A stretch of DNA of 49,186 nucleotides from an uncultured bacterium (lineage in GTDB: Bacteria; Patescibacteriota; Minisyncoccia; Phycocordibacterales; UBA2100), in the NCBI GenBank assembly GCA_903824595.1, contig CAIJXH010000017.1, positions 1 through 49,186 on the forward strand. Reading direction: 5' to 3'. Positions 1-12,586 of this stretch are shown piece by piece. The first letter of the stretch is position 1. The number at the start of each line of letters is the position of its first letter. The translations under genes and the position numbers were made by a program. Under the pieces are notes generated by a model that was given only the letters and a program-made list of their open reading frames with translations, made no database searches and was not told the origin of the DNA.

Positions 1-927
1 TATTACGTCACCAAACAGGTGGCTGCTGCAAATGGGCATATGACATATACACCATATGTCCCAGGATCATACGCGTTTACCTTGACGTGTAGTTCTGGGG
101 GTAAAGACGGTTCGCCCACTGCACAGAATCAGGTAACCGTGGATGTCAACAATGGTACGACCCAGCAGGTGTTTCAGACAATCTCCACATCCAAGGCTTC
201 CTACGTTCAAGGTGAACCAATCGCCGTTACGTGGAGAGGATTTGAGAAATCTCACTCGAATGATTCCATTGCTCTTGTGATCGATGGTAAGGCATGGTCT
301 GATTACACTGGTCCTACTGCGAATATGTGGTTCTATACCAAGGATGTGGATAATGGTAGTGGCACCGTCGTAGCTCCATCGCCCGGTACATACGAAGTCG
401 TGTACTTCACCAGAGATGGTTCGTCGGAAGTAGTTCGAAGTTCTCCCATTACGGTTACTGCTGCACCGGTGATTCCTCCGACCATCTCCACCGCCAAAAC
501 CTCTTATGTCCAAGGTGAACCAATCGCCGTTACCATCTCAAATCCCAATCAATCGCTCTACAACGATTGGATCGCGTTCTACGATCCAAACGAAAAAAAC
601 AATGGTGATTACAGTATCAATACGTGGAAAGGCGATTGGGTAACCACCAACGGCACCAAGGTATACAACACGGGATCCGTTGCCTCAAGTGTTACCCTCC
701 AAAGCACGTCTCTCGCTCCTGGTGCCTACCAAATCCGTCTTGTTGATTGCAATTCCAAAGCAACGGTCGCTACGGCATCGGTGACGATTGCGGCGCCTGT
801 TTCTGCAGCCAGTGCGGGGAGTAATCTCGCGGCTGTTGGTGGTTCTGTCGATCTTGCACGTATTCAGTCGACACTCAAATCGTTGCAAGCCGCTCTTGAA
901 GCTATTGCTGCACAAAGAGGACAGTAA
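1..927 (+). CDS. Surface/secreted protein, C-terminal part (5' end outside window), with two tandem Ig/Fn3-like domains and a C-terminal amphipathic helix
   Basis: Frame is open from base 1. The motif TISTxKxSYVQGEPIAVT is duplicated. The protein is S/T/G/V-rich and ends in NLAAV...LKSLQAALEAI, a tail style seen in Parcubacteria surface proteins. Confidence 0.75.
   Translation, partial: YYVTKQVAAANGHMTYTPYVPGSYAFTLTCSSGGKDGSPTAQNQVTVDVNNGTTQQVFQTISTSKASYVQGEPIAVTWRGFEKSHSNDSIALVIDGKAWSDYTGPTANMWFYTKDVDNGSGTVVAPSPGTYEVVYFTRDGSSEVVRSSPITVTAAPVIPPTISTAKTSYVQGEPIAVTISNPNQSLYNDWIAFYDPNEKNNGDYSINTWKGDWVTTNGTKVYNTGSVASSVTLQSTSLAPGAYQIRLVDCNSKATVATASVTIAAPVSAASAGSNLAAVGGSVDLARIQSTLKSLQAALEAIAAQRGQ
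178..533 (+). repeat. Intragenic domain duplication (178-230 and 481-533)
   Basis: An identical 23-mer caaggtgaaccaatcgccgttac occurs at 208-230 and 511-533 within longer similar segments. Confidence 0.85.
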
Positions 928-950
928 ATGCAGGGTGAGTATGTATGGAG

Positions 951-978
951 AGGCGATGACCGTTGCGTGTCATCGCCT
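951..978. terminator. Stem-loop between convergent genes
   Basis: aggcgatgac-N8-gtcatcgcct perfect 10-bp stem between stops at 927 (+) and 987 (-). Confidence 0.6.
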
Positions 979-986
979 TTCTCAAT

Positions 987-1970
987 TTAGATTTTCACAC
1001 ACGCGATGGTGTTGGCGATTGCCATTGCGTTGGCTGGAGCGACGCGAGTTATGTGTGGTGCGGCGTCGACGGCGGCGGTGGCGATGATGGGAAGCCCTGC
1101 TTCAGCGGCTTCAAGGAGAACGTAGGGCGCACCTTCTTTGAGAGAGGGGAGAAGAAATATATCGAACGCCTTCAGGTATGTGGCGGCATCGGGGACGAAA
1201 CCAAGGAAGTGGACGCGATCGGCGACGCCGCACTCCTTTGCTTTGCATTGGAGCGCGACTCTTTCTTCTCCGTCACCCATGATGAAATACTCGACGCACG
1301 TGCCGCGTTCTTTGAGAATCGCGACTGCCTCAATCGCGTAGCGGATGCCTTTGTTGGGCGTGAGTTCGGCGATGGTGATGATGCGTGGCGCCGATGTGTT
1401 GAGAGAAAGTATGAAAGATGATTTTTCTCGTGTGAGGAATGCTGGGGGTTCAATCGCAAGGGGAATGTAGCGCGCCCTTCGTCCGACAAGCCACATCTTC
1501 TTGCCGATCTCCTCGTCCTTTTTTGAAATGACGATCACTTCATGCGCGAGGAGCGCTGTTGCCCAGCTGATCGCGTAGATTGCGCATCGGGTGAATGCGC
1601 TACGCGGCTCTTTGAACGGCCATCCGTGTGCGGTGAACACGATCTTTTTGACGCCACACATACGTCCTGCGAGTGCGCCAAGCGCGGCAGCTTTGGAGCT
1701 GTTGAGATGCAGTACGTCTGGCCTTATCGTACGGATGCAGCGCACTATTTCTAAAAAACTCTTTATGTCGGACAGAGTGGATACATCGCGCACCAGCGAG
1801 GGAATAGCGTACGTTTCGATTCCGTCTTTGGCGAGCATCTCCGAAAGTCGCCCTGCAGTACCGTAAGCAACGACGGGCACCACTCCTTCAGGGGCACGGG
1901 TCGTCATGTCCCATACATAGCGTTGCGCACCGCCCCACGTGGCTTTGGTGATGAGGTATAGAATCTTCAT
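987..1970 (-). CDS. Glycosyltransferase family 4 (GT-B)
   Basis: MKILYLITKATWGGAQRY, PDVLHLNSSKA, FTAHGW, ELTPNKG and FLLPSLKEGAPYVLLEA (EX7E) motifs. Start moved to ATG 1970. Confidence 0.9.
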   Translation of the reverse strand: MKILYLITKATWGGAQRYVWDMTTRAPEGVVPVVAYGTAGRLSEMLAKDGIETYAIPSLVRDVSTLSDIKSFLEIVRCIRTIRPDVLHLNSSKAAALGALAGRMCGVKKIVFTAHGWPFKEPRSAFTRCAIYAISWATALLAHEVIVISKKDEEIGKKMWLVGRRARYIPLAIEPPAFLTREKSSFILSLNTSAPRIITIAELTPNKGIRYAIEAVAILKERGTCVEYFIMGDGEERVALQCKAKECGVADRVHFLGFVPDAATYLKAFDIFLLPSLKEGAPYVLLEAAEAGLPIIATAAVDAAPHITRVAPANAMAIANTIACVKI

Positions 1971-2012
1971 GCTTGTGGCTGATCGTGTTTTGTGGCACGA
2001 TTGCCTCATTGT

Positions 2013-3374
2013 ATGACGCTTGTTCCTCAGAGGGAATACCTTGTTCTCTTGATTGGTGATGCGTGTGTGTTTGTGGCGACGCTGTGGATTGCGCTTGCAC
2101 TCCGTGCGTTTACGTTTCCTGCGTGGGATGTGTTCGTGCGGCACCTTGTTCCGTTCTCAATACTGTTCATTGCGTGGGCGCTTGTGTTTTTTGTCGCGGG
2201 ATTGTATGGGAGACACACGCGGTTGTTTCGGAGTGCGCTGCCGTCAAAGATTCTCTATGCGCTTTTGTGCAATATCTTGCTCGCGGCACTCTTTTTCTTT
2301 TTCGTTCCCGTGGGGCTTGCGCCGAAAACAATTCTCGTACTGTATTTGTGCGTCGCGTTTCCGTTGATTTATGTATGGCGAGTTATTGTGTTTACTCGAT
2401 TGCCGCGCTCATTCTCTGGCAAGAAACTTCGCGGAATTCTCATTGCATCTGGTCCCGATGCACGAGAGCTCTCTGAAGAAGTGGCGAGCGACGCACGGTA
2501 TCCATTCGCGTTTGAATATGTGATAGACACGGCGCATACGCCTTCGCATGAAATCATCGAACGTTCGTGTCGTCTTGCGCAGGAAGATGATATGACGTTT
2601 CTTGTGGTTGATTTTTCTGATAAAGCGTTTGTTGCGGCGCAGCCGATTATTTACGATGCGGCATTTCGCAAGCGCAGGTTTGCGATCATTGATATCGTGG
2701 AGTTGTACCAAGAAGTGTTTGAGCGTGTGCCGCTCTCACTCGTCCAATATGAATGGATTCTGTCGCGCGTATCATCTTCTCGCGTGTATGGAGCGCTCAA
2801 GCGCGTTATAGACGTCGTGGGCGCCTTGCTTATTGGCGCGTGTTCTTTGCCCCTGTATCCATTGGTTATGCTTTTCATTTGGGTCGATGATCGCGGCGAG
2901 TATTTCATCGTGCAAAAGCGCGTTGGTCGCTACGAACGTCCGATGAGTATTGTGAAATTCCGTACCATGACAGGTAATGATATGGGCAATTATGGCGCGG
3001 ACGGAAAATCAAAATTGCGTGTGACGCGCGTGGGCAAATGGCTACGCATGCTTCGCATCGACGAATTGCCACAGGTGTGGAACGTGCTCAAGGGAGATTT
3101 GTCGCTGGTCGGACCTCGACCTGAATTGCCGTCGCTCGCGCGCGAATATAGTGCTCATATCCCTTACTACAACGCGCGATATCTCATTACGCCCGGGCTT
3201 ATGGGGTGGGCGCAGCTCAAGCACGACCGAGATCCGCATCACGGCACTGATATTGTTGAAACGAGGAACAAGCTCGCGCACGATCTCTTCTATCTTCGTC
3301 ATCGCTCGCTTCTTCTTGATGTGTATATTATCCTTCAAACAATCCGTGTTGTCCTTTCGGCGCGCGGATCGTGA
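2013..3374 (+). CDS. Polyprenyl-phosphate sugar phosphotransferase (exopolysaccharide initiating sugar transferase, WcaJ/WbaP type)
   Basis: N-terminal TM helices plus KRVID, KFRTM, LRIDELPQVWNVLKGDLSLVGPRPE and PGLMGWAQ motifs. Confidence 0.93.
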   Translation: MTLVPQREYLVLLIGDACVFVATLWIALALRAFTFPAWDVFVRHLVPFSILFIAWALVFFVAGLYGRHTRLFRSALPSKILYALLCNILLAALFFFFVPVGLAPKTILVLYLCVAFPLIYVWRVIVFTRLPRSFSGKKLRGILIASGPDARELSEEVASDARYPFAFEYVIDTAHTPSHEIIERSCRLAQEDDMTFLVVDFSDKAFVAAQPIIYDAAFRKRRFAIIDIVELYQEVFERVPLSLVQYEWILSRVSSSRVYGALKRVIDVVGALLIGACSLPLYPLVMLFIWVDDRGEYFIVQKRVGRYERPMSIVKFRTMTGNDMGNYGADGKSKLRVTRVGKWLRMLRIDELPQVWNVLKGDLSLVGPRPELPSLAREYSAHIPYYNARYLITPGLMGWAQLKHDRDPHHGTDIVETRNKLAHDLFYLRHRSLLLDVYIILQTIRVVLSARGS

Positions 3375-3477
3375 TGTTACGAGCATAGACGACACTTCTT
3401 GAATTCTTCGGTCTCTCGTTCTCCAAAATCCCCACATCCGCCAATGGGGGCGGTAGAAATGCGATATACTAATCAGC

Positions 3478-3639
3478 ATGCAATGGCTTGTCACTGGTCT
3501 GTTTGCGATACCGATCTCCATCGGCGTGTTCGCGGGAGCGATGCCGCTGCTGTATCATGCTGTGCTACAAGGTAGCAACAGTCAGCAAGTCGCGGCGGCT
3601 TCGGAATTCAAAAATCCTGCGGGGGGGGGCGACTCATAG
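3478..3639 (+). CDS. 53-aa N-terminal membrane-anchor segment of the DGR target gene, out of frame at a G9 tract
   Basis: Not in the ORF track. Reads MQWLVTGLFAIPISIGVFAGAMPLLYHAVLQGSNSQQVAAASEFKNPAGGGDS*, with TATACT at 3465-3470 7 nt before the ATG. One extra G joins it in frame to 3744..5657. Confidence 0.75.
   Translation: MQWLVTGLFAIPISIGVFAGAMPLLYHAVLQGSNSQQVAAASEFKNPAGGGDS
3621..3629 (+). repeat. G9 homopolymer at the frameshift point (candidate phase-variation switch)
   Basis: cctgc-GGGGGGGGG-cgactc; G10 or G7 restores one continuous ORF. Confidence 0.75.
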
Positions 3640-5657
3640 CATCTTCGTCTCCTGAAAAGAAATCACTCGCATTCACTTCGGCAACGACAACTCCCAAAAG
3701 CGGAGGACAGACCATTATCAACCAGTATCCCGTCATCGAACGCGTGGAACACCTCAACACCATCACCACGCAAAGCGGCGTTACGCCATCCGACCTCAAC
3801 GCGCTTGAGAACAAGATGCGCTCGCTCATCTCTCTCCAATCCTCCCAACAAGGTGCGCAGACCGCCGCCGTCTCTCAAATGGTCTCCCAATCCCAGAGAA
3901 TAGACAACTTGAGCAATACCACTATCCAAAATCCCACAATCACCGGCGGCTCCATCACGGCCGCTTCTATCGCGGGCACCATCGTCAATGCGATCAACAC
4001 CGACGCCGCGACCATCGACAATCTCACGTCCAACACCGTCACCGCCAGCAATGGCACCTTCACCTACGCCACGACCACGAATCTCGTCGCAACGAATGCA
4101 ACGACCACCAACCTCTCTGCGGTATACGCGTCTTCCGTCCTCTCCACAATCGGCACCCTGAATCTCACCAACGCACTCACACCAGGGAACGGCGGCACCG
4201 GCACCTCGACCCCCGCCTCCCTCGGCAACCTCCTCTCCTGGAACGGCACCACCTACCAAGGCGTCGCCACCTCCTCACTCTTCAACACCGCCAACACCAG
4301 CGTCTCCGGCCTCCTCTCTGCCACCGACTGGAACACCTTCAATGGGAAGCAAGCTGCCGGCTCCTACCTCACCGCTCTCACCGGCGATATCACTGCGACC
4401 GGACCTGGATCAGCGGTAGCAACCTTGGCGATGAACGTCTCCCACTGGTGGACTGCTCTGCAAAACTTCGGCAACGCCAGCACCTCCATGCTCACTGCCA
4501 CCAGTACCGTGTGGTTCACGTCGCTCGCCACTCCCACCGGCACCTTTTTGGCGGTAGATACTACAGGGAAGGTGATCGCGACCACCACGCCCGCCAACTA
4601 CTTCACCAATAGCGGCTCCAACACCTACCTCTCTACTGGCATCAATCTCCTCGTCGGCACCACCACGTCGCTCGCTCCCTTAACGATCTTCAAGACAGCC
4701 GCCTCCGCGCAAGAGCGCATCTCGTACGATGCCACCCGCTATGCCGAGCTCTATACCGACGCCTCCGGCGCGCTCAATCTCAGCGCGACCGGTGCCATCC
4801 TCAACATGCTCAACGGCAACATGTATCTCTGCGACGGCGGCGCGTGCCCGACCACGCCCGTGCAGGGCTACCCGACGTTCGCGAGCCAGGGCAATCTCGT
4901 CTTGGGCAATGCGCTCTATACAAATGCAGTAAATCCGGCTACCTGTCCCTCTGGCATGATTCCCGTACCCGCCTCGCCCGCAAATGGTCAGCAGGGATTC
5001 TGCGTGGACAAATACGAAGCGCAATCATCAAGCGGCAATGAGGTATCGGTGCAAGGCGGCTCGCCGTGGGTATCCATCGCGCAGACCAGCGCGAGAGCCG
5101 AATGCAAGCGCGCCGGCAAGCACCTCATCACGGAGAAAGAGTGGCAGGCGATTGCAAATGATGTCGAGAATGTCGGGTTCAACTGGAACGGCGGTGTCGT
5201 CGGCACCAACCAAATGAGCGACGGTCATTCCGACAACAGCCCCTCATCCGCGCTCGCGACCGCCGCCGACTCCTCGCCCTGCTCTGACACCGGCCAGACC
5301 TGCGACCTTAGTACATGGAACAGCCAACGTCGCGTGTACAAATTATCAAATGGGCAATACATCTGGGACTTCGGCGGCAATGTCTGGGAATGGGTGGATC
5401 AGACGGTTACCAATGACTATCCAATCGTCAACAGCGCGGCGGCTGGATGGCAGGCATGCTCCACAAGCGGCGACGGCGTCTGCGGCAACACGCGCACCAC
5501 CAACGACCAATGGTACCGAGGCGGTTTTGCCACCATTGCGGGCTTCATCCGCGGCGGCAATTGGAACGATGGCGCGATCGATGGTGCGTTCGCGCTGGGT
5601 CTGAACAATTCGCCGTCCGCTGTGGGCACGTCCCTTGGGTTTCGGTGCTCTCGTTGA
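3630..5657 (+). CDS. DGR target-type surface protein: Thr/Asn-rich tail-fibre-like stalk plus C-terminal CLec-fold (FGE-sulfatase) domain
   Basis: Frame is open from the G tract to 5657 (ORF track starts it at GTG 3744). Motifs: CPSGMIPVP, FCVDKYEA, HLITEKEW, IWDFGGNVWEWV, IRGGNW...LGFRCSR*. Confidence 0.88.
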   Translation, partial: RLIASSSPEKKSLAFTSATTTPKSGGQTIINQYPVIERVEHLNTITTQSGVTPSDLNALENKMRSLISLQSSQQGAQTAAVSQMVSQSQRIDNLSNTTIQNPTITGGSITAASIAGTIVNAINTDAATIDNLTSNTVTASNGTFTYATTTNLVATNATTTNLSAVYASSVLSTIGTLNLTNALTPGNGGTGTSTPASLGNLLSWNGTTYQGVATSSLFNTANTSVSGLLSATDWNTFNGKQAAGSYLTALTGDITATGPGSAVATLAMNVSHWWTALQNFGNASTSMLTATSTVWFTSLATPTGTFLAVDTTGKVIATTTPANYFTNSGSNTYLSTGINLLVGTTTSLAPLTIFKTAASAQERISYDATRYAELYTDASGALNLSATGAILNMLNGNMYLCDGGACPTTPVQGYPTFASQGNLVLGNALYTNAVNPATCPSGMIPVPASPANGQQGFCVDKYEAQSSSGNEVSVQGGSPWVSIAQTSARAECKRAGKHLITEKEWQAIANDVENVGFNWNGGVVGTNQMSDGHSDNSPSSALATAADSSPCSDTGQTCDLSTWNSQRRVYKLSNGQYIWDFGGNVWEWVDQTVTNDYPIVNSAAAGWQACSTSGDGVCGNTRTTNDQWYRGGFATIAGFIRGGNWNDGAIDGAFALGLNNSPSAVGTSLGFRCSR
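5550..5657 (+). other. Predicted DGR variable region (VR) and 3' IMH-containing end
   Basis: RGGNWNDGAIDGAFALGLNNSPSAVGTSLGFRCSR*. Codons at the positions expected to vary (aat, aac, gat, atc, ggt, aac, aat, gct, ggc, tcc, ctt) all end in C/T, as expected for derivatives of AAY/ATY template codons. Confidence 0.75.
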
Positions 5658-5671
5658 AGGGGTTACTCTAC

Positions 5672-5700
5672 AATCTTGAATCTATCAATCTATAATCTTG
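5672..5700 (+). repeat. Short tandem 7-8 nt repeat (AATCT core x4)
   Basis: aatcttg aatctatc aatctat aatcttg. Confidence 0.7.
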
Positions 5701-5730
5701 CATTTTGTATCTTCTTCAATCTCTTCCGCT

Positions 5731-5916
5731 ATGTTGCACGACCTCCAAATCTTCCAGAAATCGTATACATTCCTCTTCTGGATAAAACAGGTTACGCAAA
5801 AATTCGCCAAGGCGCACAAGTACGCGCTCGCCACGCGGATTCTTTCTGTCTTCGGCGATCTATGGAAAGTCGGCTCGGGCTTCCGCCCGGTAGCATTGCG
5901 TGAATATTTGACGTGA
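5731..5916 (+). pseudogene. avd: Truncated DGR accessory variability determinant (Avd / four-helix-bundle family); resemblance ends after about 37 aa
   Basis: MLHDLQIFQKSYTFLFWIKQVTQKFAKAHKYALATRI matches the Avd N-terminal pattern LxIFQKxYxxxxW...KFPKxxKYxLxxRI. Unrelated sequence and an early stop follow. It lies directly after the VR-bearing gene. Confidence 0.75.
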
Positions 5917-5930
5917 TATAATCGGATGGT

Positions 5931-6296
5931 ATGAAAGAGAAAAGCAAACAGAAAACGGAGGTGCAGGAGTTGTTTGAGTTTATCCGCGAGCACATGCCGC
6001 TGAAAAGCGAGGTGGCGATGAAAGACGATCTTGCACGATTTGCTACGAAAGATGATCTTGTCGCCATAAAAAGCGATATTGTTGCCATGAAAAGCGATAT
6101 TGTTGCCATGAAAAGCGATCTCACTGAACAAATAGAGGACGTCAAACGATTTGTTACTGACAAACTCGAGCAGAACAAAGAAGAGATCATTGACCGTCTC
6201 ACACCGACCGAAAAAGCGGTAGACAAGGATGTCGTCATGGTCTTGGATCACGAACGCCGCATCCGCATTATCGAAAAACAGTATGCGCGGGCCTAA
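5931..6296 (+). CDS. Small coiled-coil protein with heptad repeats (ATKDDL motif)
   Basis: Clean ORF with extended -10 TGATATAAT 8 nt before the ATG; repeated KSDIVAM heptads. Confidence 0.8.
   Translation: MKEKSKQKTEVQELFEFIREHMPLKSEVAMKDDLARFATKDDLVAIKSDIVAMKSDIVAMKSDLTEQIEDVKRFVTDKLEQNKEEIIDRLTPTEKAVDKDVVMVLDHERRIRIIEKQYARA
6063..6119 (+). repeat. 21-bp in-frame tandem repeat (about 2.7 copies)
   Basis: gccat(a/g)aaaagcgatattgtt x2 plus gccatgaaaagcgat. Confidence 0.9.
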
Positions 6297-6308
6297 TCAT
6301 ATTGAACT

Positions 6309-7115
6309 ATGAAGAGCGAACTTATTAAACGAGCCGTTCACTTCCTCGCCTACAACAACGCGACGGTCGTCGCGCTGGGATTGGTGCTCATCGGCGGGTC
6401 GGCGTTTGCCGCGACGACTGCGTTTACGCCGGAGAACATTCCGCCGGTACCGTCCGTTTTCTCTGCGATTGCTTCCGCGTCGGAGCCGATGGACGCGAGC
6501 ATCCTACTTTCCGCCGACCTTGCCGCGTTTGATTTCGGGACGAAGATCACCGGCGTTTCGGAAACCGACGCGCAGTATGTCGTGAATTATTCTTTGCAAA
6601 CGCTCGCACCAGAAGATGGTGCATGGCGAGGAAGTGAGCGCGATGGCAGTTTCTCCGTCGGGAAAGACGCACTCGGCGATGGTGGGCTTGCTGGATACGC
6701 GCGAGAGAAACTACTGGACATCGAAAACGGCGAGCGTGCATACCTCGCGAGAGCGAAAGAAGCGGAGCAGAAGATCGCCGACGAGCGATCATCTCGTCCG
6801 GCAAATGCTTTCGCTGGTCTCGTCGGACTTTCGCTTGATCAGATTCCCGAGCCGGTCGTCGTGAAGCCCATGCCGGAGCCGGTGCCCGATGTCGCGCTTC
6901 CAATCTCCGCGCCTTCGGTTGTCATGCCAGAGTCGACTTCCGAGTCCGTTTCTGTCGAAACGACGCCCTCCGCGCTTTCGTCTACAGAAGGCGCCGCGAC
7001 GACCACACAGGATATTATTTCTGTCGCGACAACCTCGCCTTCCGATTCAGAAACTGGTTCGTCAGATGCTACGAGTTCGACTCCGCCCGAAGGCGCGACA
7101 TCCGTCACGCTGTAA
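6309..7115 (+). CDS. Membrane-anchored/secreted hypothetical protein with a P/S/T-rich disordered tail
   Basis: N-terminal hydrophobic segment ending AFA; low-complexity C-terminus. Confidence 0.8.
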   Translation: MKSELIKRAVHFLAYNNATVVALGLVLIGGSAFAATTAFTPENIPPVPSVFSAIASASEPMDASILLSADLAAFDFGTKITGVSETDAQYVVNYSLQTLAPEDGAWRGSERDGSFSVGKDALGDGGLAGYAREKLLDIENGERAYLARAKEAEQKIADERSSRPANAFAGLVGLSLDQIPEPVVVKPMPEPVPDVALPISAPSVVMPESTSESVSVETTPSALSSTEGAATTTQDIISVATTSPSDSETGSSDATSSTPPEGATSVTL

Positions 7116-7165
7116 AAGAAAAACAACGCCTCGCACGTTTTCACTCCACGGGGTAGTATAGGAAG

Positions 7166-8074
7166 ATGAAGAAAGTCGTAGTAACCGGTGGGGCGGGATT
7201 TGTCGGGAGTAACTTGGTGCGCGAGCTTCTTGCGCAGGGATGGGATGTGCGCAGCGTCGACAACTATTCGGCGGGGAAAATTCCGAGTCGTTTTTTCGAC
7301 GGCGCAACCTACATCGAGGCCGATATACGCGCGACAAAAGACATTGAAAAGGTGTGTATCGGAGCCGACGTGGTGTTTCATACGGCCGCCAAGCCGCGCG
7401 TTCAGTTCTCGATAGACGAGCCGCTCGACACGACCGACAACAACATCACGGGTACCGTGTCGGTGTTGAAGGCTGCAACGGATGCGGGTGTGTCTCGCGT
7501 CGTGTATTCAAGTTCGGGTTCGGCATACGGCGCACAGGAAACGTTGCCGCTCACCGAAGACATGCCTGCCGCGCCGGTACATCCGTATGGTGTGCAAAAG
7601 TACGCCGCGGAACTGTTTGTGAGCATGTGGCCGTCTATCTACAAGCTCGAAACGGTCTCGCTTCGCTATTTCAATATCTATGGTCCTGGCCTTGATCCAA
7701 GCGGTGCATACGCGCTCGCCATCGGACGATTCATCACTGCGCGCAAAGAAGGAAAACCAATCACTATCTATGGCGACGGTACGATCACGCGCGATTTTAC
7801 TCATGTGCGTGACGTGGTGCGTGCCAATATCTTGGCAGCGGAGAGTGGGAAAGTAGGAAAGGGTGAAGTGATCAATATTGGTGCCGGGCGCAACGTTACG
7901 ATACAGAAACTTGCCGAAATGTTTGGAGGCGAGATCGTCTATGGGGCGCCGCGCATTGAAGCACATGATTCACTTGCTAATAATCAAAAGGCTAAAGAGC
8001 TCCTCGGATGGGAGCCGAAAGAAAATCTGGAAGATGGTATCGCAGAATTAAAACAATTATTTGGCATCGCATGA
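7166..8074 (+). CDS. NAD-dependent nucleotide-sugar epimerase/dehydratase (extended SDR)
   Basis: VTGGAGFVGS, YGVQK (YxxxK), LRYFNIYGP and TRDFTHV motifs. Confidence 0.93.
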   Translation: MKKVVVTGGAGFVGSNLVRELLAQGWDVRSVDNYSAGKIPSRFFDGATYIEADIRATKDIEKVCIGADVVFHTAAKPRVQFSIDEPLDTTDNNITGTVSVLKAATDAGVSRVVYSSSGSAYGAQETLPLTEDMPAAPVHPYGVQKYAAELFVSMWPSIYKLETVSLRYFNIYGPGLDPSGAYALAIGRFITARKEGKPITIYGDGTITRDFTHVRDVVRANILAAESGKVGKGEVINIGAGRNVTIQKLAEMFGGEIVYGAPRIEAHDSLANNQKAKELLGWEPKENLEDGIAELKQLFGIA

Positions 8075-8874
8075 TACTCGACGGCAAAGCCATAGCTGAA
8101 GACATGTATGTGGATCTCGCTCCGTGCTATGCGATGCTCGGTACATGTGTGCGGTTGGGGATTGTCGTTGTGGGGAATGATCCCGTGATTGAGTCTTTTG
8201 TGCGGATAAAATCGCGGAGCGCGGCGCGTCTCGGAGTTGATGTGGTACGCGTGAATTTGTCTGACAAGGTGCAGACGACGGAAGTGATTGCGGAAATTGA
8301 AACGTTGTCGCGTGTGGCGAACGGTATCATTGTGCAATTGCCGCTTCCTGTACCTATTGATACCAACGCGGTGCTTTCAGCGATTCCGCCAGAGAAGGAT
8401 GTAGATGCGATCAATCCACGTATAGCTGATGAAGATAGACGGGTACGTGCGCCTGTCGCGCTCGCCGTTGTCGAGTTGCTTGCACGGGGAAGTGTCGATC
8501 CGCGCGACAAACGAGTCATCGTTGCTGGTTCGGGGCGCCTCGTGGGCGCGCCTGCCGCGTCCTTGCTCGCGAGTCTCGGCGCCCGCGTATCGTTTTTCAC
8601 GCGTACTGAAGGATCGATCGATGATCTCAAGAATGCCGATATTATTGTCCTTGGCATGGGTGATCCGGCTTTTATAAAACCAGAACATCTCAAGGAGGGT
8701 GTTGCGCTTATAGATGCGGCAACGAGCGAACAGGCGGGCAAGGTTGTTGGTGACGCCGATCCTGCGTGTGCTTCAAAAACATCTCTTTTTACGCCCGTTC
8801 CCGGCGGCGTGGGACCGGTGGCGGTGGCGATGATATTCAAGAATTTGCTTGTGTTGGCGCAATGCGCATCATAA
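8071..8874 (+). CDS. folD: Methylenetetrahydrofolate dehydrogenase/cyclohydrolase
   Basis: MILDGKAIA, GIIVQLPLP, EKDVD and TPVPGGVGP motifs; ATGA overlap with the upstream stop. Confidence 0.92.
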   Translation: MILDGKAIAEDMYVDLAPCYAMLGTCVRLGIVVVGNDPVIESFVRIKSRSAARLGVDVVRVNLSDKVQTTEVIAEIETLSRVANGIIVQLPLPVPIDTNAVLSAIPPEKDVDAINPRIADEDRRVRAPVALAVVELLARGSVDPRDKRVIVAGSGRLVGAPAASLLASLGARVSFFTRTEGSIDDLKNADIIVLGMGDPAFIKPEHLKEGVALIDAATSEQAGKVVGDADPACASKTSLFTPVPGGVGPVAVAMIFKNLLVLAQCAS

Positions 8875-8937
8875 CCTTCAAAAGGTGAACATGTGTCATG
8901 TGTTGCAAAAATCTCCATTTTAGGTACTCTTCTGCCC

Positions 8938-10254
8938 ATGGCTCAAAAGAGATTTGCTGCGATTTTTGTCCTGCTTGTTGGAGTGGGTGTGGGGTGGTTT
9001 GTATATAGCTCGCAAATTCACGCGACGCGCCCTTTCAAGCTCGGACTCGATCTCTCTGGGGGCACGCAGCTTGTGTATCGTGCCAAAGTGGATGCGATCA
9101 AGTCGTCGGACATTGAGGGTTCGATGGCATCTTTGCGCGATACGATCGAACGCCGAGTCAATCTTTTCGGAGTATCGGAACCAATCGTGCAGACGGAGCA
9201 GGCGAGCGCGCTCGGTGGCAATGAACATCGTCTCATCGTGGAGCTCCCCGGCGTGACAGACACGGAGAAAGCGATCGAGCTGATCGGTCAGACGCCTGTT
9301 CTTGAATTTCGTATGCTCAAGCCGAATGCTTCTGTGCCGAGCGATTTTTCCGCATCGAGCATCAGTGCTGCGTTTGAAGCCCCTGCGATCACAGGCAAGA
9401 ATCTGAAGAGTGCCGAGCTTCAATTTCAGGGCGGTATGGGACGTCTCACGCAGCCAGTGGTCGTACTGCATTTTGATTCCTCGGGTTCTTCCGCATTTGC
9501 GCTACTTACCAAGCAGAATGTGGGTCGCGTATTTGGTATTTTTCTCGATGGGCAACCGATCTCTACGCCCGTTATTCGAGAAGAGATTCCCGATGGGACT
9601 GCGGTTATTTCTGGTGGTTTTTCTGTCGAAGATGCAAAGACTCTTTCTCGCAATCTCAATTACGGCGCATTGCCTGTGCCGATCGAGCTTATTTCTACGC
9701 AGACGGTCTCTGGAACATTGGGAGATAAAGCGGTGCGCGACGGTGTGATGGCGGGCTTGTGGGGCGTGGGTGTCGTGGGGTTTTTCATGATGCTCTGGTA
9801 TCGCGTACCAGGAGTGCTCGCGGTGGTCGCTCTTGCGATGTATGTCGTCATGGTTCTTGCGTTGTTCAAACTTATCCCCGTCACGCTCACCGCCGCTGGT
9901 ATTGCCGCTTTTATTCTCTCTGTTGGTATGGCAGTGGATGCAAACATTCTTATTTTCGAGCGCGTGAAAGAAGAACGTCGCTCGGGTAAGGATATGGAGG
10001 TGGCTATTCAAGATGGTTTTGCGCGTGCATGGCCATCTATCCGCGACAGCAACATCTCTTCGCTCATCACGGCAACGATCCTCTTCTGGTTTGGTTCGTC
10101 GCTTATCAAAGGATTCGCGCTCGTCTTCGGGCTCGGTGTGATTATTTCGATGATCACGGCGATTTCGATTTCACGCACGTTTCTCTTGGCGCTCGGCGTC
10201 GGAGGAAAAAATGCGTTTACGCGATTTTTGCTCGGATCGGGCATCTCACACTAA
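8938..10254 (+). CDS. secD: Protein translocase subunit SecD
   Basis: KLGLDLSGG, RRVNLFGVSEP, GALPVP and GMAVDANILIFER motifs. Confidence 0.96.
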   Translation: MAQKRFAAIFVLLVGVGVGWFVYSSQIHATRPFKLGLDLSGGTQLVYRAKVDAIKSSDIEGSMASLRDTIERRVNLFGVSEPIVQTEQASALGGNEHRLIVELPGVTDTEKAIELIGQTPVLEFRMLKPNASVPSDFSASSISAAFEAPAITGKNLKSAELQFQGGMGRLTQPVVVLHFDSSGSSAFALLTKQNVGRVFGIFLDGQPISTPVIREEIPDGTAVISGGFSVEDAKTLSRNLNYGALPVPIELISTQTVSGTLGDKAVRDGVMAGLWGVGVVGFFMMLWYRVPGVLAVVALAMYVVMVLALFKLIPVTLTAAGIAAFILSVGMAVDANILIFERVKEERRSGKDMEVAIQDGFARAWPSIRDSNISSLITATILFWFGSSLIKGFALVFGLGVIISMITAISISRTFLLALGVGGKNAFTRFLLGSGISH

Positions 10255-10260
10255 TCTCAT

Positions 10261-11172
10261 ATGATCATCGTCATCTACAGAAAATTGTTCTTCGCGATCA
10301 CAGCACTGCTTGTACTCGCTTCTGTCGCGTCGATTGCGGTGTTTGGCTTGCGTCTCGGCACCGATTTTACGGGCGGCACATTGATACAGGCGACGTATGC
10401 GGGAGGACGTCCGACACCCGAAGCGCTCCAGCGGTCGCTCGACACGGCTGGCTTCAATGGTTATTCGCTTCGCGAAGCAGGATCGAATGATTACGTGGTC
10501 CGCGCCGCCAACCTCACGGAGATCGAACGCACTGATTTGCCTCAAATTCTCTCGGTCGGCGGTATGTATCCTGCGACGATCAGCCAGCTTACCGAGGTAG
10601 GTCCTACCATCGGTGCCGAACTTCGTAGTAAAGCGCTTATCGCGCTCACGCTCGTGCTGCTCGCGATTCTTTTGTTTATCGCGTTTGCGTTTAGAAAAGT
10701 GTCGCAGCCTGTTTCATCGTGGACATACGGACTGATCGCGCTCATTACGCTCGTGCACGACGTGATCGTGCCCGTTGGTTTCTATGCCATGCTCGGACAC
10801 TTTTTCGGCGCACAGGTGGATTCGCTCTTTGTGACTGCGGTTCTCACCGTGCTCGGCTTTTCCATTCACGATACAATCGTCGTCTTCGATCGAGTACGTG
10901 AGAATTTGCGTGTGAATAAAGACAGGGGAAGGCGCGAGGATTTTGCGGAGACCGCCGGTCGTTCGCTCAATCAGACGTTTGTGCGCTCGATCAACACGTC
11001 GCTCACGGTTGTTTTCACACTCTTCGTTTTATATCACATGGGTCCGGCATCCACGCGTGACTTTTCTCTTACGCTTCTCGTGGGTATTATTGCTGGTACG
11101 TATTCATCGATCTTTCTCGCGACGCCGCTTTTGGTGAGCGCGGAGCGATATCTCGCGCGGAAGCGCGCATGA
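10261..11172 (+). CDS. secF: Protein translocase subunit SecF
   Basis: LGTDFTGG, VGPTIG, GFSIHDTIVVFDRVRE, RSINTS and GTYSSIFLA motifs. Confidence 0.96.
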   Translation: MIIVIYRKLFFAITALLVLASVASIAVFGLRLGTDFTGGTLIQATYAGGRPTPEALQRSLDTAGFNGYSLREAGSNDYVVRAANLTEIERTDLPQILSVGGMYPATISQLTEVGPTIGAELRSKALIALTLVLLAILLFIAFAFRKVSQPVSSWTYGLIALITLVHDVIVPVGFYAMLGHFFGAQVDSLFVTAVLTVLGFSIHDTIVVFDRVRENLRVNKDRGRREDFAETAGRSLNQTFVRSINTSLTVVFTLFVLYHMGPASTRDFSLTLLVGIIAGTYSSIFLATPLLVSAERYLARKRA

Positions 11173-11897
11173 TCCGCACGCTTGGCATAGTCGGCTACGG
11201 TGCGTTTGGCACACTGCTTTCTACGCTCGCCAAGCGTTTTGTGCCGAACATTGATGTGCGCGTGTATTCCTTGCGCAAAGAGCCTGATGGCGTCACGTTC
11301 TTTTCGCTGGCTGATACGGCGTCGTCTGATGTGGTGGTGCTTGCGGTGCCTATTCATGCGTTTGAGAACAAGCTCAAAGAAATACTGCCGCTCATGCGAA
11401 CGGACGGTATTATCGTCGACGTGGCGACGGTCAAAGCGCATACGGTCGAGGTGTTGCGGCGGCTGGCGGGCAACCGCCGCTGGATTGCAACGCATCCAAT
11501 GTGGGGTCCTGAGAGCTACAAAAAGAAACACGGTGACGTGACGGGGTTTCGCGTTGTTATAACCGAGCATACACTCGAAATACAAGACGTTGACGCGCTT
11601 TCTCGTTTCCTTTCCCTATGCGGATTCACGGTTGTTTCGATGAACGCCGATCAGCACGACATTCATCTTGCCGAGACGCTCTTTCTGACGCATTTCATCG
11701 GACAAATTATCGCGCGTTCTGGATTTGATCGTACGCCAATCGACACTGCTTCTTTTGGGTATATCATGGACGCGGTCGAGAGTGTGAAAAATGATGAAGC
11801 GTTGTTCCGCGACGTGTTTCGATACAATCCGTATTGCAAAGAGGTGCTGGAGCGGTTTGGGGAGGGGGAGGAAGCGGTGCGGAAGCTGCTGGGGTAG
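11169..11897 (+). CDS. tyrA: Prephenate/arogenate dehydrogenase family protein
   Basis: GIVGYGAFG Rossmann motif, DVATVK, THPMWGP and QHD motifs. Confidence 0.8.
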   Translation: MIRTLGIVGYGAFGTLLSTLAKRFVPNIDVRVYSLRKEPDGVTFFSLADTASSDVVVLAVPIHAFENKLKEILPLMRTDGIIVDVATVKAHTVEVLRRLAGNRRWIATHPMWGPESYKKKHGDVTGFRVVITEHTLEIQDVDALSRFLSLCGFTVVSMNADQHDIHLAETLFLTHFIGQIIARSGFDRTPIDTASFGYIMDAVESVKNDEALFRDVFRYNPYCKEVLERFGEGEEAVRKLLG

Positions 11898-11911
11898 CGT
11901 ACAATGTGCCT

Positions 11912-12586
11912 ATGAAGCTGAAAAAGAAGCACTCGATTGATGAACTGGTGATCTACCAGGCAAAAGACGGAGCGATTGAGCTGCGGGGCGATGTGTCGCG
12001 TGATACGATATGGGCTTCCCTTGATCAGATCGCTCAAATCTTTGGTCGTGACAGGTCGGTGATATCTCGCCACTTGAAGAACATATATAATGAAGGAGAA
12101 TTGAAAGCGACACTAACTGTTGCAAAAAATGCAACAGTTCAAATCGAAGGCAGTCGTCAAGTCGTTCGTACTATTGAATATTATAATCTCGACGCCATTC
12201 TTTCCGTCGGGTATCGGGTGAATTCCAATACCGCGACACAATTCCGTCAGTGGGCGACGCGTATCCTCCGCGAGCACATCACGTGCGGCTACACCATCAA
12301 CCGAAAACGCATTGGCAGTAATTACGATGCGTTCATGAAAGCCGTCGCCGACGTACAGACGCTGTTGCCGGAACATATCACGCTCGACCCGAAAGCGGTA
12401 CTCGATCTCTGGAATCCTAGAGGCGACACCTCTAGGATGGATTACAGATTGCGCACATATACATCGACTTTCTTGTATGACGTGAGAATAATGAGTTTGT
12501 CTCGGTGTTCACGGACGAGTGCCTGGATTTTCGGTCTTGCGGTGAAATGGCGACGGATGATGTCGAAGAAGAACAGAATCTCTTGA
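11912..12586 (+). pseudogene. RhuM-family (virulence/DNA-binding) protein, apparently 3'-truncated near 12410
   Basis: TIWASLDQIAQIF, ISRHLKNIY and YYNLDAILSVGYRVNS..ATQFRQWA motifs. After a palindrome at 12414 the frame runs antisense into the next gene. Confidence 0.72.
12414..12438. repeat. REP-like palindrome, copy 1
   Basis: atcctagagg-cgaca-cctctaggat; related copy at 27440-27472. Confidence 0.75.

What the first reader, a model, noticed from the sequence alone, without database searches (positions are those of the whole stretch)
3478..5657. DGR target adhesin with a poly-G ON/OFF switch: phase variation layered on hypermutation
Seen: an ORF missed by the track starts at ATG 3478 with its own -10 box, encodes a membrane anchor and stops at 3639, just after G9 (3621-3629). 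The downstream frame is open from the G tract to 5657, so G10 (or G7) gives one ~726-aa anchored protein with a fibre-like stalk and a C-terminal CLec domain carrying a VR. Known: homopolymeric G tracts near the 5' end of surface genes drive slipped-strand phase variation, and CLec/FGE domains are the standard DGR targets. Inference: this epibiont may both diversify a host-binding tip and stochastically switch its display, and the assembled allele is OFF. I do not know of this combination being described for a CPR DGR target.
Basis: partly seen in the sequence, partly recalled or inferred. Interest (0 to 1): 0.85.

Follow-up and report, generated by a model that had tools for sequence, protein, structure and literature searches.

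The report
Frameshifted surface-protein gene at poly-G tract
A gene for a membrane-anchored, lectin-tipped surface fibre in a tiny pond bacterium is knocked out of frame by a run of nine Gs that looks like a slippage-prone on/off site, while the retroelement that once diversified its tip has been lost from this genome.

Summary
ATG 3478, G9 at 3621-3629 and TAG 3637-3639 are there, and the downstream frame is open to 5657. G10 or G7 gives a 726/725-aa protein. Homologues show one gene is split between 3608 and 3705.

The C-terminal domain folds as the lectin/FGE fold of DGR variable proteins, and relatives sit beside Avd, TR and RT. Here the DGR is dead. Only 37 Avd codons remain, and this 97.6%-complete genome holds no TR or RT. 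The variable region was identical in three runs.

G9 stands in contigs of two runs and G8 in a third at low depth; both are OFF, and no ON allele was seen. The genome lacks MutS/MutL. It has ten G/C runs of 8 or more, biased to gene 5' ends, and a second G9 breaks a sugar-pathway gene.

My reading: a slippage-prone, contingency-type tract caught OFF (about 0.5). The main rival is a young pseudogene (about 0.3).

Side lead: 41 of 44 cassettes without a same-strand avd in related genomes carry a poly-G or (GA)n tract just upstream of RT.

The parts
3465..3470 (+).
   Evidence: Read. No + strand promoter-like site was listed here by the scan of 3200-6400, and I saw no good -35 by eye.
3478..3639 (+). 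5' piece of the split gene: a 53-aa ORF with the start codon, a hydrophobic membrane-anchor helix and the 'QQVAAAS' linker motif, ending at TAG just after the tract
   Evidence: hydropathy. It aligns colinearly with the N-termini of 10 homologues.
3621..3629 (+). G9 homopolymer, the site of the frameshift. G10 or G7 restores one ORF; G8 and G9 are OFF
   Evidence: G9 stands in contigs of runs X1 and X2; G8 stands in a contig of X3 at depth 2.7.
3630..5657 (+). 3' piece of the split gene (the frame is open from 3576): linker, Thr/Ala/Ser/Asn-rich stalk and C-terminal domain. It has no internal stop and no canonical start before GTG 3744
   Evidence: Homologues appear.
4902..5654 (+). C-terminal FGE-sulfatase/C-type-lectin-fold domain (251 aa folded)
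   Evidence: Pfam PF03781 scores E 8.2e-5, 22.8 bits against a cut-off of 23.3. The A2 profile hits PDB 5vf4 at E 2.9e-9 and SUMF2 at 2.5e-6. The AlphaFold model has pLDDT 90.9. Foldseek top hits are TaqVP (E 3.6e-8, TMq 0.56), FGEs, and Mtd (E 4.1e-6).
5538..5653 (+). Relic variable region (VR), the last ~38 codons
   Evidence: It aligns to the template repeats of five relatives (L012, L032, L033, L030, L027) at 75-81% identity. Of 22-27 mismatches, 11-14 lie at template adenines, where A content is 0.20-0.23. No TR copy exists in the genome. The stretch is identical in runs X1, X2 and X3.
5731..5841 (+). Stub of the DGR accessory gene avd: the first 37 codons, inside a 61-codon ORF 5731-5916 that then diverges
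   Evidence: tblastn with the L012 Avd matches residues 1-37 at 38% identity, E 1.5e-5. No Pfam hit.

Best explanation
The locus is one gene for a ~726-aa surface protein. It has an N-terminal membrane anchor, a Thr/Ala/Ser/Asn-rich stalk and a C-terminal C-type-lectin/FGE-fold binding domain. The family serves as the variable protein of DGRs in Patescibacteria-type small genomes. In this genome the DGR has been deleted down to a 37-codon avd stub, so the variable region is a frozen relic. The gene is out of frame at a G9 run in the linker between anchor and stalk. I read that run as a slipped-strand hot spot of the contingency-locus kind. With no MutS/MutL, replication slippage should change its length often, toggling the anchored protein between OFF (G8, G9) and ON (G7, G10). 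The sampled populations are OFF. Shown: the split, the fold, the family's DGR association, the loss of RT/TR/Avd, G9 in two runs and G8 in one, the lack of mismatch repair genes, and the 5' bias of long G/C runs. Inferred: that slippage is frequent and reversible, that the ON form is made and used, and that OFF/ON is under selection.
For: Split gene and its repair lengths. No other lesion: the 693-codon frame has no stop, and the domain keeps all columns that are invariant in 21- and 71-sequence alignments (the query is a row of both, so this is partly by construction). Tract-length difference with nothing else changed: X3 contigs cover about 2,590 nt of 2800-6400 with 0 other letters and a single 1-base deletion at 3621. 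X1 (depth 9.9) and X2 (depth 7.4), from two studies, have G9. No MutS_V or MutL family match in a 97.6%-complete genome; the controls ring in 11 of 14 genomes. Homopolymers: G/C runs of 5, 6 and 7 number 401, 52 and 11, against 904, 230 and 58 expected under independent bases. Yet 10 runs of 8-10 exist. Of these 10, 6 are coding, and all 6 read poly-G in the mRNA. Five of the 6 lie within the first 47 codons. Four are intergenic. A second G9 (contig C19) splits a Gfo/Idh/MocA oxidoreductase inside its Rossmann domain, between GlmS-like and DegT genes. That gene needs -1/+2, whereas this gene needs +1/-2, so a one-directional miscount cannot explain both. Genus sample: 9 of 40 long G/C tracts from 7 other genomes become an ORF at least 100 aa longer with a 1-2 base change, against 48 of 1000 random positions (p 9.5e-5). 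Eight of those 9 are within 65 codons of the start. In-frame tracts lie in the first 60 codons in 8 of 17 cases, against 19.5% of controls (p 0.009). At least one G8/C8 run occurs in 58 of 61 genus genomes.
Against: No ON allele was seen; both lengths found are OFF. The G8 rests on one 254-nt contig at depth 2.7, which the tool itself flags as possibly an error. All reads data were contigs, which hide minor variants, so within-population heterogeneity is untested. X1 and X2 may be the source samples and so are not independent of the assembly. The count of long G/C runs (10) is not above the independent-base expectation (about 20 for runs of 8 or more); only the shape of the distribution is odd. 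If the continuation rate of the 6-to-7 step is used as the null, 10 against 6.1 is not significant (p 0.09). Homologues have no Gly run at the site. No close orthologue exists in 41 relatives, 185,579 species genomes or JGI metagenomes to test conservation. Loss of the DGR beside the gene fits decay of the whole locus. The ORF-based 'OFF-like' test uses crude ORF calls. Five of its 9 positives are one recurring element (the DGR RT junction), so they are not independent.
Confidence: 0.5

Rival explanations
1. Young, fixed pseudogene. After the DGR cassette was deleted the target lost its use, and a slippage event at a pre-existing Gly-codon run was simply the first inactivating lesion. The tract changes length (G9, G8) because it is mutable, but the gene is never used again.
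For: RT, TR and most of avd are gone. Decayed cassettes of the same family occur elsewhere: L013 has Avd 1-20 fused to RT 77-290, and L028 has Avd 1-80 plus an RT tail. All three populations sampled are OFF, and the two lengths seen are both OFF. A 99%-identical partial protein from another contig (P0001) is also called from the GTG-3744 equivalent, which suggests the upstream frame is closed there too (inference only).
Against: No second lesion in 2,028 nt downstream of the tract. All conserved residues of the domain are kept. The same genome keeps four G8 runs in frame in other 5' coding regions, and the genus shows a 5' bias of such runs, which is hard to explain by decay alone.
Confidence: 0.3
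2. Sequencing or assembly miscount: the true tract is G10 and the gene is intact.
For: Long G runs are error-prone. Depth is only about 7-10 in the two runs that show G9, and these may be the very reads behind the assembly.
Against: Logan's independent assemblies of two runs from two studies both give G9. Four G8 runs in coding regions of the same assembly are in frame, and two G10 runs were assembled. The other G9 needs the opposite correction. The third run shows G8, not G10.
Confidence: 0.07
3. The frameshift is bypassed during expression: RNA polymerase slippage on the G run, or ribosomal frameshifting, gives a steady low level of full-length protein from the G9 allele.
For: Only general knowledge (recalled, not from any call) that polymerases slip on long homopolymers. 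The downstream frame is intact.
Against: No RNA data: no RNA run held the stretch. No frameshift-stimulating element was looked for or seen. From recall, known transcriptional slippage sites are mostly A/T runs.
Confidence: 0.05
4. The VR is still diversified in trans by a DGR RT/TR on an unbinned contig, plasmid or phage of the same cell.
For: The genome is 97.6% complete, not closed. DGR RTs occur in 21 of 60 sampled genomes of the genus.
Against: No TR-like copy of the VR anywhere in the 22 contigs. The avd stub shows the cassette was deleted in place. The VR is identical in contigs of three runs.
Confidence: 0.05

Closest known systems
DGR variable proteins with the C-type-lectin/FGE fold (TaqVP of Thermus aquaticus, PDB 5vf4; Mtd of Bordetella phage, PDB 1yu4)
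   Same: The C-terminal 251 aa fold like them (TaqVP E 3.6e-8, TMq 0.56; Mtd E 4.1e-6, TMq 0.45). The variable stretch sits at the very C-terminus. Close relatives sit next to Avd, TR and RT with adenine-biased VR/TR mismatches (L012: 17 of 20 at template A).
   Different: Here there is no RT, no TR and only an avd stub, so it is an orphaned ex-target. It also carries an N-terminal anchor and a long stalk, and it is frameshifted.
Poly-G/C contingency (phase-variable) genes of Campylobacter, Neisseria and Helicobacter (abstracts of PMC8355987, PMC5084427 and PMC2823697 seen in the listing)
   Same: A G run of 8 or more in the 5' coding part of a surface or glycan gene, whose length sets the reading frame. 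The genome has no MutS/MutL. There are several such tracts per genome, some intergenic.
   Different: Switching has not been observed here: no ON allele and no within-population length spectrum. The organism is an uncultured small-genome pond bacterium, not a host-associated pathogen. In four literature searches I found no paper describing homopolymer switches in Patescibacteria/CPR.
Hypervariable 9-mer repeat gene of a Gracilibacterium (PMC6851277; title, abstract and passages read)
   Same: A CPR bacterium with a surface-type gene that varies through simple-sequence repeats, attributed there to slipped-strand mispairing.
   Different: That case is in-frame copy-number variation of a 9-nt unit (PTD repeats), not an ON/OFF frameshift at a homopolymer, and no DGR is involved.
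Homopolymeric tracts near gene 5' ends as a general prokaryotic feature (PMC2831843; abstract only)
   Same: The 5' bias of tracts inside coding genes.
   Different: A general statistical claim; it does not cover this lineage or DGR cassettes as far as the abstract shows.

Membership tests
Diversity-generating retroelement (working DGR locus) | DGR-type reverse transcriptase in the genome | tested here: not met
   PF00078 search of the own genome gave 0 matches, with the control ringing in 3 of 14 genomes. tblastn with a relative's RT gave a best E of 0.65. The protein search of G000 gave 0 matches, against 21 of 60 genus genomes.
Diversity-generating retroelement (working DGR locus) | Template repeat matching the VR with adenine-specific mismatches | tested here: not met
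   blastn (word 7) of 5300-5700 against all 22 contigs found only the self hit and chance hits of 51 nt or less. The repeat finder on 1-12000 found no such pair.
Diversity-generating retroelement (working DGR locus) | Accessory gene avd | tested here: not met
   Only residues 1-37 of about 112 are recognisable at 5731-5841. The ORF then diverges and stops at 5916.
DGR variable-protein family (as an ex-target) | C-type-lectin/FGE fold with the variable stretch at the C-terminus, and homology to proteins with a proven VR/TR pair | tested here: met
   Fold. Profile to PDB. Homologue L012 has VR 6567-6684 and TR 7171-7288, with 17 of 20 mismatches at template A. The window's 5538-5653 aligns to five relatives' TRs, with about half of the mismatches at template A.
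Pfam PF03781 FGE-sulfatase | Score at or above the gathering cut-off | tested here: inconclusive
   22.8 bits against a cut-off of 23.3, E 8.2e-5. Several homologues carry PF03781 in the precomputed column. The fold search agrees.
Simple-sequence contingency (phase-variable) locus | Homopolymer of about 8 or more in the 5' coding region, whose length sets the frame | tested here: met
   G9 at codons 48-51 of a 726-codon gene. G7/G10 are ON; G8/G9 are OFF.
Simple-sequence contingency (phase-variable) locus | Tract-length polymorphism between or within populations with an otherwise identical sequence | tested here: inconclusive
   G9 in X1 and X2. G8 in one X3 contig at depth 2.7, with 0 other differences over about 2,590 nt. 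Contigs only, so there is no per-read spectrum.
Simple-sequence contingency (phase-variable) locus | Both ON and OFF alleles exist and switching is reversible at high rate | not testable with these tools
   Only OFF lengths were seen.
Simple-sequence contingency (phase-variable) locus | Conservation of a variable-length tract at the same site in orthologues | tested here: not met
   None of the 10 aligned homologues has a Gly run at the break, but they are distant. No close orthologue was found.

The most novel reading that the evidence does not exclude
Small-genome Patescibacteria of this genus and its neighbours, which lack mismatch repair, run a set of poly-G/C (and GA) contingency tracts. 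These tracts sit not only in surface and glycan genes such as this ex-DGR target but also inside the DGR cassettes themselves. A variable-length tract (G8-G14 or (GA)10-15) lies just upstream of RT, in the junction with the oppositely oriented avd where avd was found, in 41 of 44 such cassettes. It often abuts a -10-like hexamer. A second tract lies in the 3' part of RT in the sub-clade linked to this protein family. If these tracts set avd/RT expression, the hypermutator itself is switched on and off at random.
Probability: 0.3. Interest if true: 0.8.

Novelty: new member of a known kind. Interest (0 to 1): 0.55.

Why it matters
If the tract really switches, this would be evidence that uncultured episymbiont-type bacteria with minimal genomes use the same cheap stochastic strategy as mucosal pathogens to vary what they display on their surface. 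Here that is a lectin-tipped fibre that probably contacts a host cell or is a phage receptor. It also gives a natural example of what happens to a DGR target once its retroelement is lost. The side observation may matter more: simple-sequence tracts built into DGR cassettes of many related genomes. It would make the long-open question of how DGR activity is regulated in nature directly testable, by comparing tract length with VR diversity in existing metagenomes.

Tried and rejected
- **Close orthologues to compare tract length: none found.**
  - In 41 relatives only weak partial hits appeared, best E 7e-11.
  - GTDB species genomes gave two good hits (L012, L013) that match only from residue 165 or 343 on.
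  - JGI metagenome contigs matched only the C-terminal half.
  - The second G9 gene (contig C19) has no match at 1e-20 in 60 genus genomes.
- **First structure job.** The 21-sequence alignment A1 gave pLDDT 38 and was discarded. The second, with 71 sequences, worked.
- **Single-sequence PDB search** gave only weak hits, best E 0.047.
- **Promoter scans.**
  - Nothing on the + strand before 3478. The 3 sites in 3200-6400 compare with 1.5 expected.
  - Nothing at the two intergenic tracts I read by eye as promoter spacers. The scan only accepts 16-18 nt spacers, so this neither supports nor refutes that reading.
- **Frame analysis of the avd-RT junction tracts was inconclusive.**
  - Anchors taken from HSPs and permissive start rules gave contradictory 'in frame' sets.
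  - By my hand tally of the rows whose avd-sense ATG lies 1-12 codons before the tract, about 7 of 18 were in frame. That is what a non-coding tract would give.
  - I therefore do not claim that these tracts shift reading frames.
- **Rejected: the + strand ORF across the C8 at C11:873 as a gene.** It is antisense to a RodA/FtsW-like gene.
- **Rejected: the idea that long G/C runs are in absolute excess.** They are not; there are 10 against about 20 expected under independent bases.
- **Selections I made before counts.**
  - N-terminal alignment: I used 10 of the 14 proteins fetched. P0001, P0002 and P0012 start inside the protein. P0005 was left out by oversight.
  - A1 used 20 of the best 23 hits.
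  - A2 used 64 of the 150 listed representatives plus 6 earlier hits, chosen for shorter length and a single matched stretch.
  - The 40 genus tracts are all 39 listed tracts of the six genomes G074, G021, G070, G024, G001 and G060 from the listing, taken before I knew their context.
  - The 40th region is the longest listed tract of G047, added to fill the call. It turned out to be an RT-junction tract.
  - One search left 411 matches unlisted.
- **Papers.** Supplementary files were not consulted.
Full report
**What is in the sequence**

- ATG 3478 opens a 53-codon frame. It runs through a G9 at 3621-3629 and stops at TAG 3637-3639.
- A second frame is open from 3576 to 5657. Its first canonical start is GTG 3744.
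- Changing only the tract length in silico gives one ORF of 725 aa (G7) or 726 aa (G10) from ATG 3478.
- G9 gives a 55-aa product.
- G8 gives only a fusion to a TTG-3488 frame with no hydrophobic segment.
- The 53-aa piece begins with a strongly hydrophobic stretch.

**It is one split gene**

- A search of the large protein collection found 442 relatives at E of 0.001 or better among 8,000 scored candidates. The best are 40-80% identical over the C-terminal half.
- I read the gene through by reference and aligned its N-terminal part with 10 homologues.
  - The hydrophobic helix and the 'QQVAAAS' motif of the ATG-3478 frame line up with the homologues.
  - The 'QTIINQYPVIERV' and 'RIDNL' motifs of the long frame line up with them too.
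  - The break lies in an unconserved linker.
- GTG 3744 is the Val inside 'IERV', so it is an internal codon and not the start.
- None of the 10 homologues has a Gly run at the break.

**What the protein is**

- The stalk (residues 21-440 of the long frame) is 18% Thr, 12% Ala, 11% Ser and 9% Asn.
- The last 251 aa:
  - score just under the Pfam FGE-sulfatase cut-off (22.8 against 23.3 bits);
  - as a 71-sequence profile, match PDB 5vf4 (E 2.9e-9), SUMF2 and FGEs;
  - fold with pLDDT 90.9.
- Foldseek puts the DGR variable protein TaqVP first (E 3.6e-8, TMq 0.56). Formylglycine-generating enzymes and the phage tropism determinant Mtd follow.
- The domain family is large: 3,115 cluster representatives at E of 0.001 or better.

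**The family is a DGR target family, but the DGR here is dead**

- In the Nomurabacteria-labelled locus L012 the homologue ends in a VR (6567-6684). Avd follows at 6782-7117, a TR at 7171-7288, and an RVT_1 reverse transcriptase. The TR differs from the VR at 20 positions, 17 of them template adenines.
- I tested twelve related loci.
  - Avd plus RT follow the target in L012, L030, L032, L033, L034 and L035.
  - Avd alone, up to the contig end, follows in L027 and L029.
  - Two loci are decayed (L013, L028).
  - Two gave no hit for either protein (L031, L036).
- In the window only Avd residues 1-37 are recognisable, at 5731-5841.
- No RT is found in the 97.6%-complete genome by family or by protein search.
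- No TR-like copy of 5300-5700 exists in any of the 22 contigs.
- The window's 5538-5653 aligns to five relatives' TRs at 75-81% identity. Of 22-27 mismatches, 11-14 lie at template A, where A is 20-23% of the bases. That is the footprint of past DGR action.
- Contigs of three runs carry the same VR.
- So the 'hypermutation' layer is a relic.

**Is the G9 real, and does it vary?**

Only Logan contigs were available.

- X1 (depth 9.9) and X2 (depth 7.4) come from two studies. Both are flagged as possible sources of the assembly. Both span the tract with G9.
- X3 is a third sample. One 254-nt contig at depth 2.7 has one G fewer.
- All X3 contigs together cover about 2,590 nt with no other difference.
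- G8 is also OFF.
- P0001 is a 99%-identical partial protein from another contig. It starts at the GTG-3744 equivalent, which suggests a closed upstream frame there too (inference).
- No ON allele was seen, and within-sample heterogeneity could not be tested.

**Genome context that favours a slippage hot spot**

- No MutS_V or MutL family match was found in the genome.
- G/C runs of 5, 6 and 7 number 401, 52 and 11. The independent-base expectations are 904, 230 and 58. Ten runs of 8-10 are present, whereas A/T runs fall off steadily.
- The ten runs are not an absolute excess (about 20 expected). What is odd is the heavy tail after a strong depletion.
- Six of the ten are in coding regions.
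  - All six are poly-G in the mRNA sense.
  - Five lie within the first 47 codons.
  - Four G8 runs are in frame: a secreted or anchored 230-aa protein, a 657-aa Cys-rich protein, an anchored PG_binding_1 protein next to a TraG-like ATPase, and a 144-aa ORF.
  - Both G9 runs break their genes.
- The second broken gene is a Gfo/Idh/MocA oxidoreductase lying between GlmS-like and DegT genes.
  - Its Pfam match starts at profile position 47, because the Rossmann start is in the other frame.
  - It needs -1/+2, while the window gene needs +1/-2. A one-way miscount therefore cannot explain both.
- Four runs are intergenic. Two of them, by my eye only, sit next to -10-like hexamers. The scan did not call these promoters.

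**The genus**

- At least one G8/C8 run occurs in 58 of 61 sampled genomes, with runs up to 19.
- I examined 40 tracts from 7 other genomes.
  - Nine gain an ORF at least 100 aa longer with a 1-2 base change, against 48 of 1,000 random positions (p 9.5e-5).
  - Eight of those nine lie within 65 codons of the start.
  - In-frame tracts lie in the first 60 codons in 8 of 17 cases, against 19.5% of controls (p 0.009).
- Caveats: the ORF calls are crude, related genomes are not independent, and five of the nine are one recurring element (next section).

**Side lead: simple-sequence tracts inside DGR cassettes**

- The four RT genes closest to the cassette of this protein family (L012, L032, L013, L033) carry G16, G12, G8 and G8 at one place. 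It lies just after the 'STVKRF' motif, near RT residue 290.
  - The conserved C-terminal tail is in another frame in L032 and L013.
  - It is apparently in frame in L033.
  - It cannot be scored in L012 because of an N-run.
  - None of the 32 other RT loci has a tract at that place.
- RTs are common: 101 of 301 genomes of L012's order and 21 of 60 of the window's genus.
- In most of these cassettes avd lies on the opposite strand, head to head with RT.
- A G8-G14 run sits within 150 nt upstream of RT residue 1 in 37 of 51 unique loci. A (GA)10-15 run sits at the same place in 4 more.
- The ten loci without a tract are the 7 same-strand-avd cassettes plus L131, L138 and L139.
- A TAnnnT hexamer directly follows the G run in 11 of 37 loci. 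The background rate is 0.011 per position (p 2.5e-13).
- In some loci the ATG of RT lies 10-20 nt after the tract. The tract may therefore be a promoter spacer or a leader rather than coding sequence.
- My frame analysis was inconclusive.
- This resembles divergent phase-variable promoters such as hifA/hifB of Haemophilus (recalled, not from any call).
- One search for DGR plus homopolymer listed 12 of 21 papers. None deals with this, by title.

**Literature**

- Searches for phase variation with Patescibacteria or CPR returned 4 and 5 papers. A broader search over 'contingency loci' and 'slipped-strand' with CPR synonyms listed 20 papers, none holding either phrase.
- The relevant passages I read concern a Gracilibacterium gene with hypervariable in-frame 9-mer repeats (PMC6851277) and possible phase variation of the host of TM7x (PMC6275545).
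- PMC8144416 states, in the passages seen, that one DGR clade is restricted to Patescibacteria.
- I did not see supplements.

**Verdict**

  - This is an orphaned DGR target, not a currently diversified one.
  - The G9 is a credible but unproven slippage switch, caught OFF.
- I put 0.5 on a contingency-type tract, 0.3 on a young pseudogene, and the rest on miscount, expression bypass or a trans-acting DGR.

Noticed in passing
Own genome G000, contig C19:3759-3767 (locus L059 2260-2268, minus strand): A second G9 run splits a Gfo/Idh/MocA oxidoreductase inside its Rossmann domain. G8 or G11 would give 309/310 aa. The gene lies between a GlmS-like (SIS plus GATase) gene and a DegT aminotransferase gene, so it looks like a sugar-modification pathway. 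It has no match at 1e-20 in 60 genus genomes.
   Followed up: yes
Own genome G000: C3:1955, C4:48729, C4:72899, C4:89675, C4:106291, C4:111602, C11:873, C16:13510, C17:3621, C19:3759: These are all ten G/C runs of 8 or more in the genome. Four G8 runs are in frame near 5' ends of ORFs. Two G9 runs are out of frame. Four runs are intergenic: upstream of a radical-SAM gene and divergent mscL, upstream of a DUF5663 gene near a tRNA, between a RodA-like gene and a signal-peptide protein, and between a DUF6803 gene and alaS.
   Followed up: partly
Own genome G000, C4:106291-106300 (L055 2292-2301) and C11:873-880 (L057): By eye, the G10 lies between a TTGACG and a TAGGAT hexamer (19-nt spacing) upstream of a radical-SAM gene. 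The G8 (minus strand) lies just before a CATAAT hexamer upstream of a secreted protein gene. These are candidates for promoter-spacer tracts. The scan tool called no promoter at either place.
   Followed up: partly
Loci L086-L088, L097-L099, L104-L143 (DGR cassettes of the window's genus and of L012's order): avd and RT lie head to head on opposite strands in most of these loci. A simple-sequence tract (G8-G14 in 37 loci, (GA)10-15 in 4) sits just upstream of RT, in the short junction between the two genes where avd was detected. That is 41 of 44 cassettes that lack a same-strand avd. A TAnnnT hexamer directly follows the G run in 11 of 37. This may be a random on/off or level switch of the hypermutator.
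   Followed up: partly
L012 8353-8368, L032 2011-2022, L013 6830-6837, L033 2033-2040: The four RT genes closest to this protein family's cassette carry G16, G12, G8 and G8 at one conserved place near RT residue 290. The conserved C-terminal tail is in another frame in L032 and L013. No tract stands at that place in 32 other RT loci. In L012 the run is followed by a G7 and a run of N.
   Followed up: partly
L013 6121-6917 and L028 1602-1838: Other genomes hold decayed cassettes of the same family. L013 has Avd residues 1-20 joined to RT residues 77-290 with no TR. L028 has Avd 1-80 followed by an RT tail fragment. Loss of the retroelement next to a retained target therefore recurs.
   Followed up: partly
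Run X1, contig record 4 (4,372 nt, depth 20), touching window 5375-5395 and 5545-5569: A contig of another, more abundant organism in the same pond holds two copies of the 25-mer at 5545-5569, 888 nt apart. This is probably the VR and TR of an intact DGR of the same family. The same joint is seen in all four runs.
   Followed up: no
Own genome G000 (whole): No MutS_V and no MutL (DNA_mis_repair) family match in a 97.6%-complete 0.77-Mb genome. G/C homopolymers of 5-7 are 2-5 fold depleted against base composition.
   Followed up: yes
window 5667-5696: A promoter-like site (TCTACA, 18 nt, TATAAT; 10 of 12) lies just upstream of the avd stub's ATG 5731. It is one of 3 sites in 3,200 nt against 1.5 expected, so it is not significant on its own.
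   Followed up: no
window 174-230 and 477-533: Two 57-nt direct repeats, 82% identical and 303 nt apart, lie inside the first ORF (1-927). That ORF has a weak phage 'Head_binding' Pfam hit (E 0.0012). It is probably a repeated domain of another surface protein.
   Followed up: no
window 1992-3374 and 7166-8074: The split gene is flanked by a Bac_transf sugar transferase upstream and, further downstream, an NAD-dependent epimerase. This is a cell-envelope and glycan neighbourhood.
   Followed up: no
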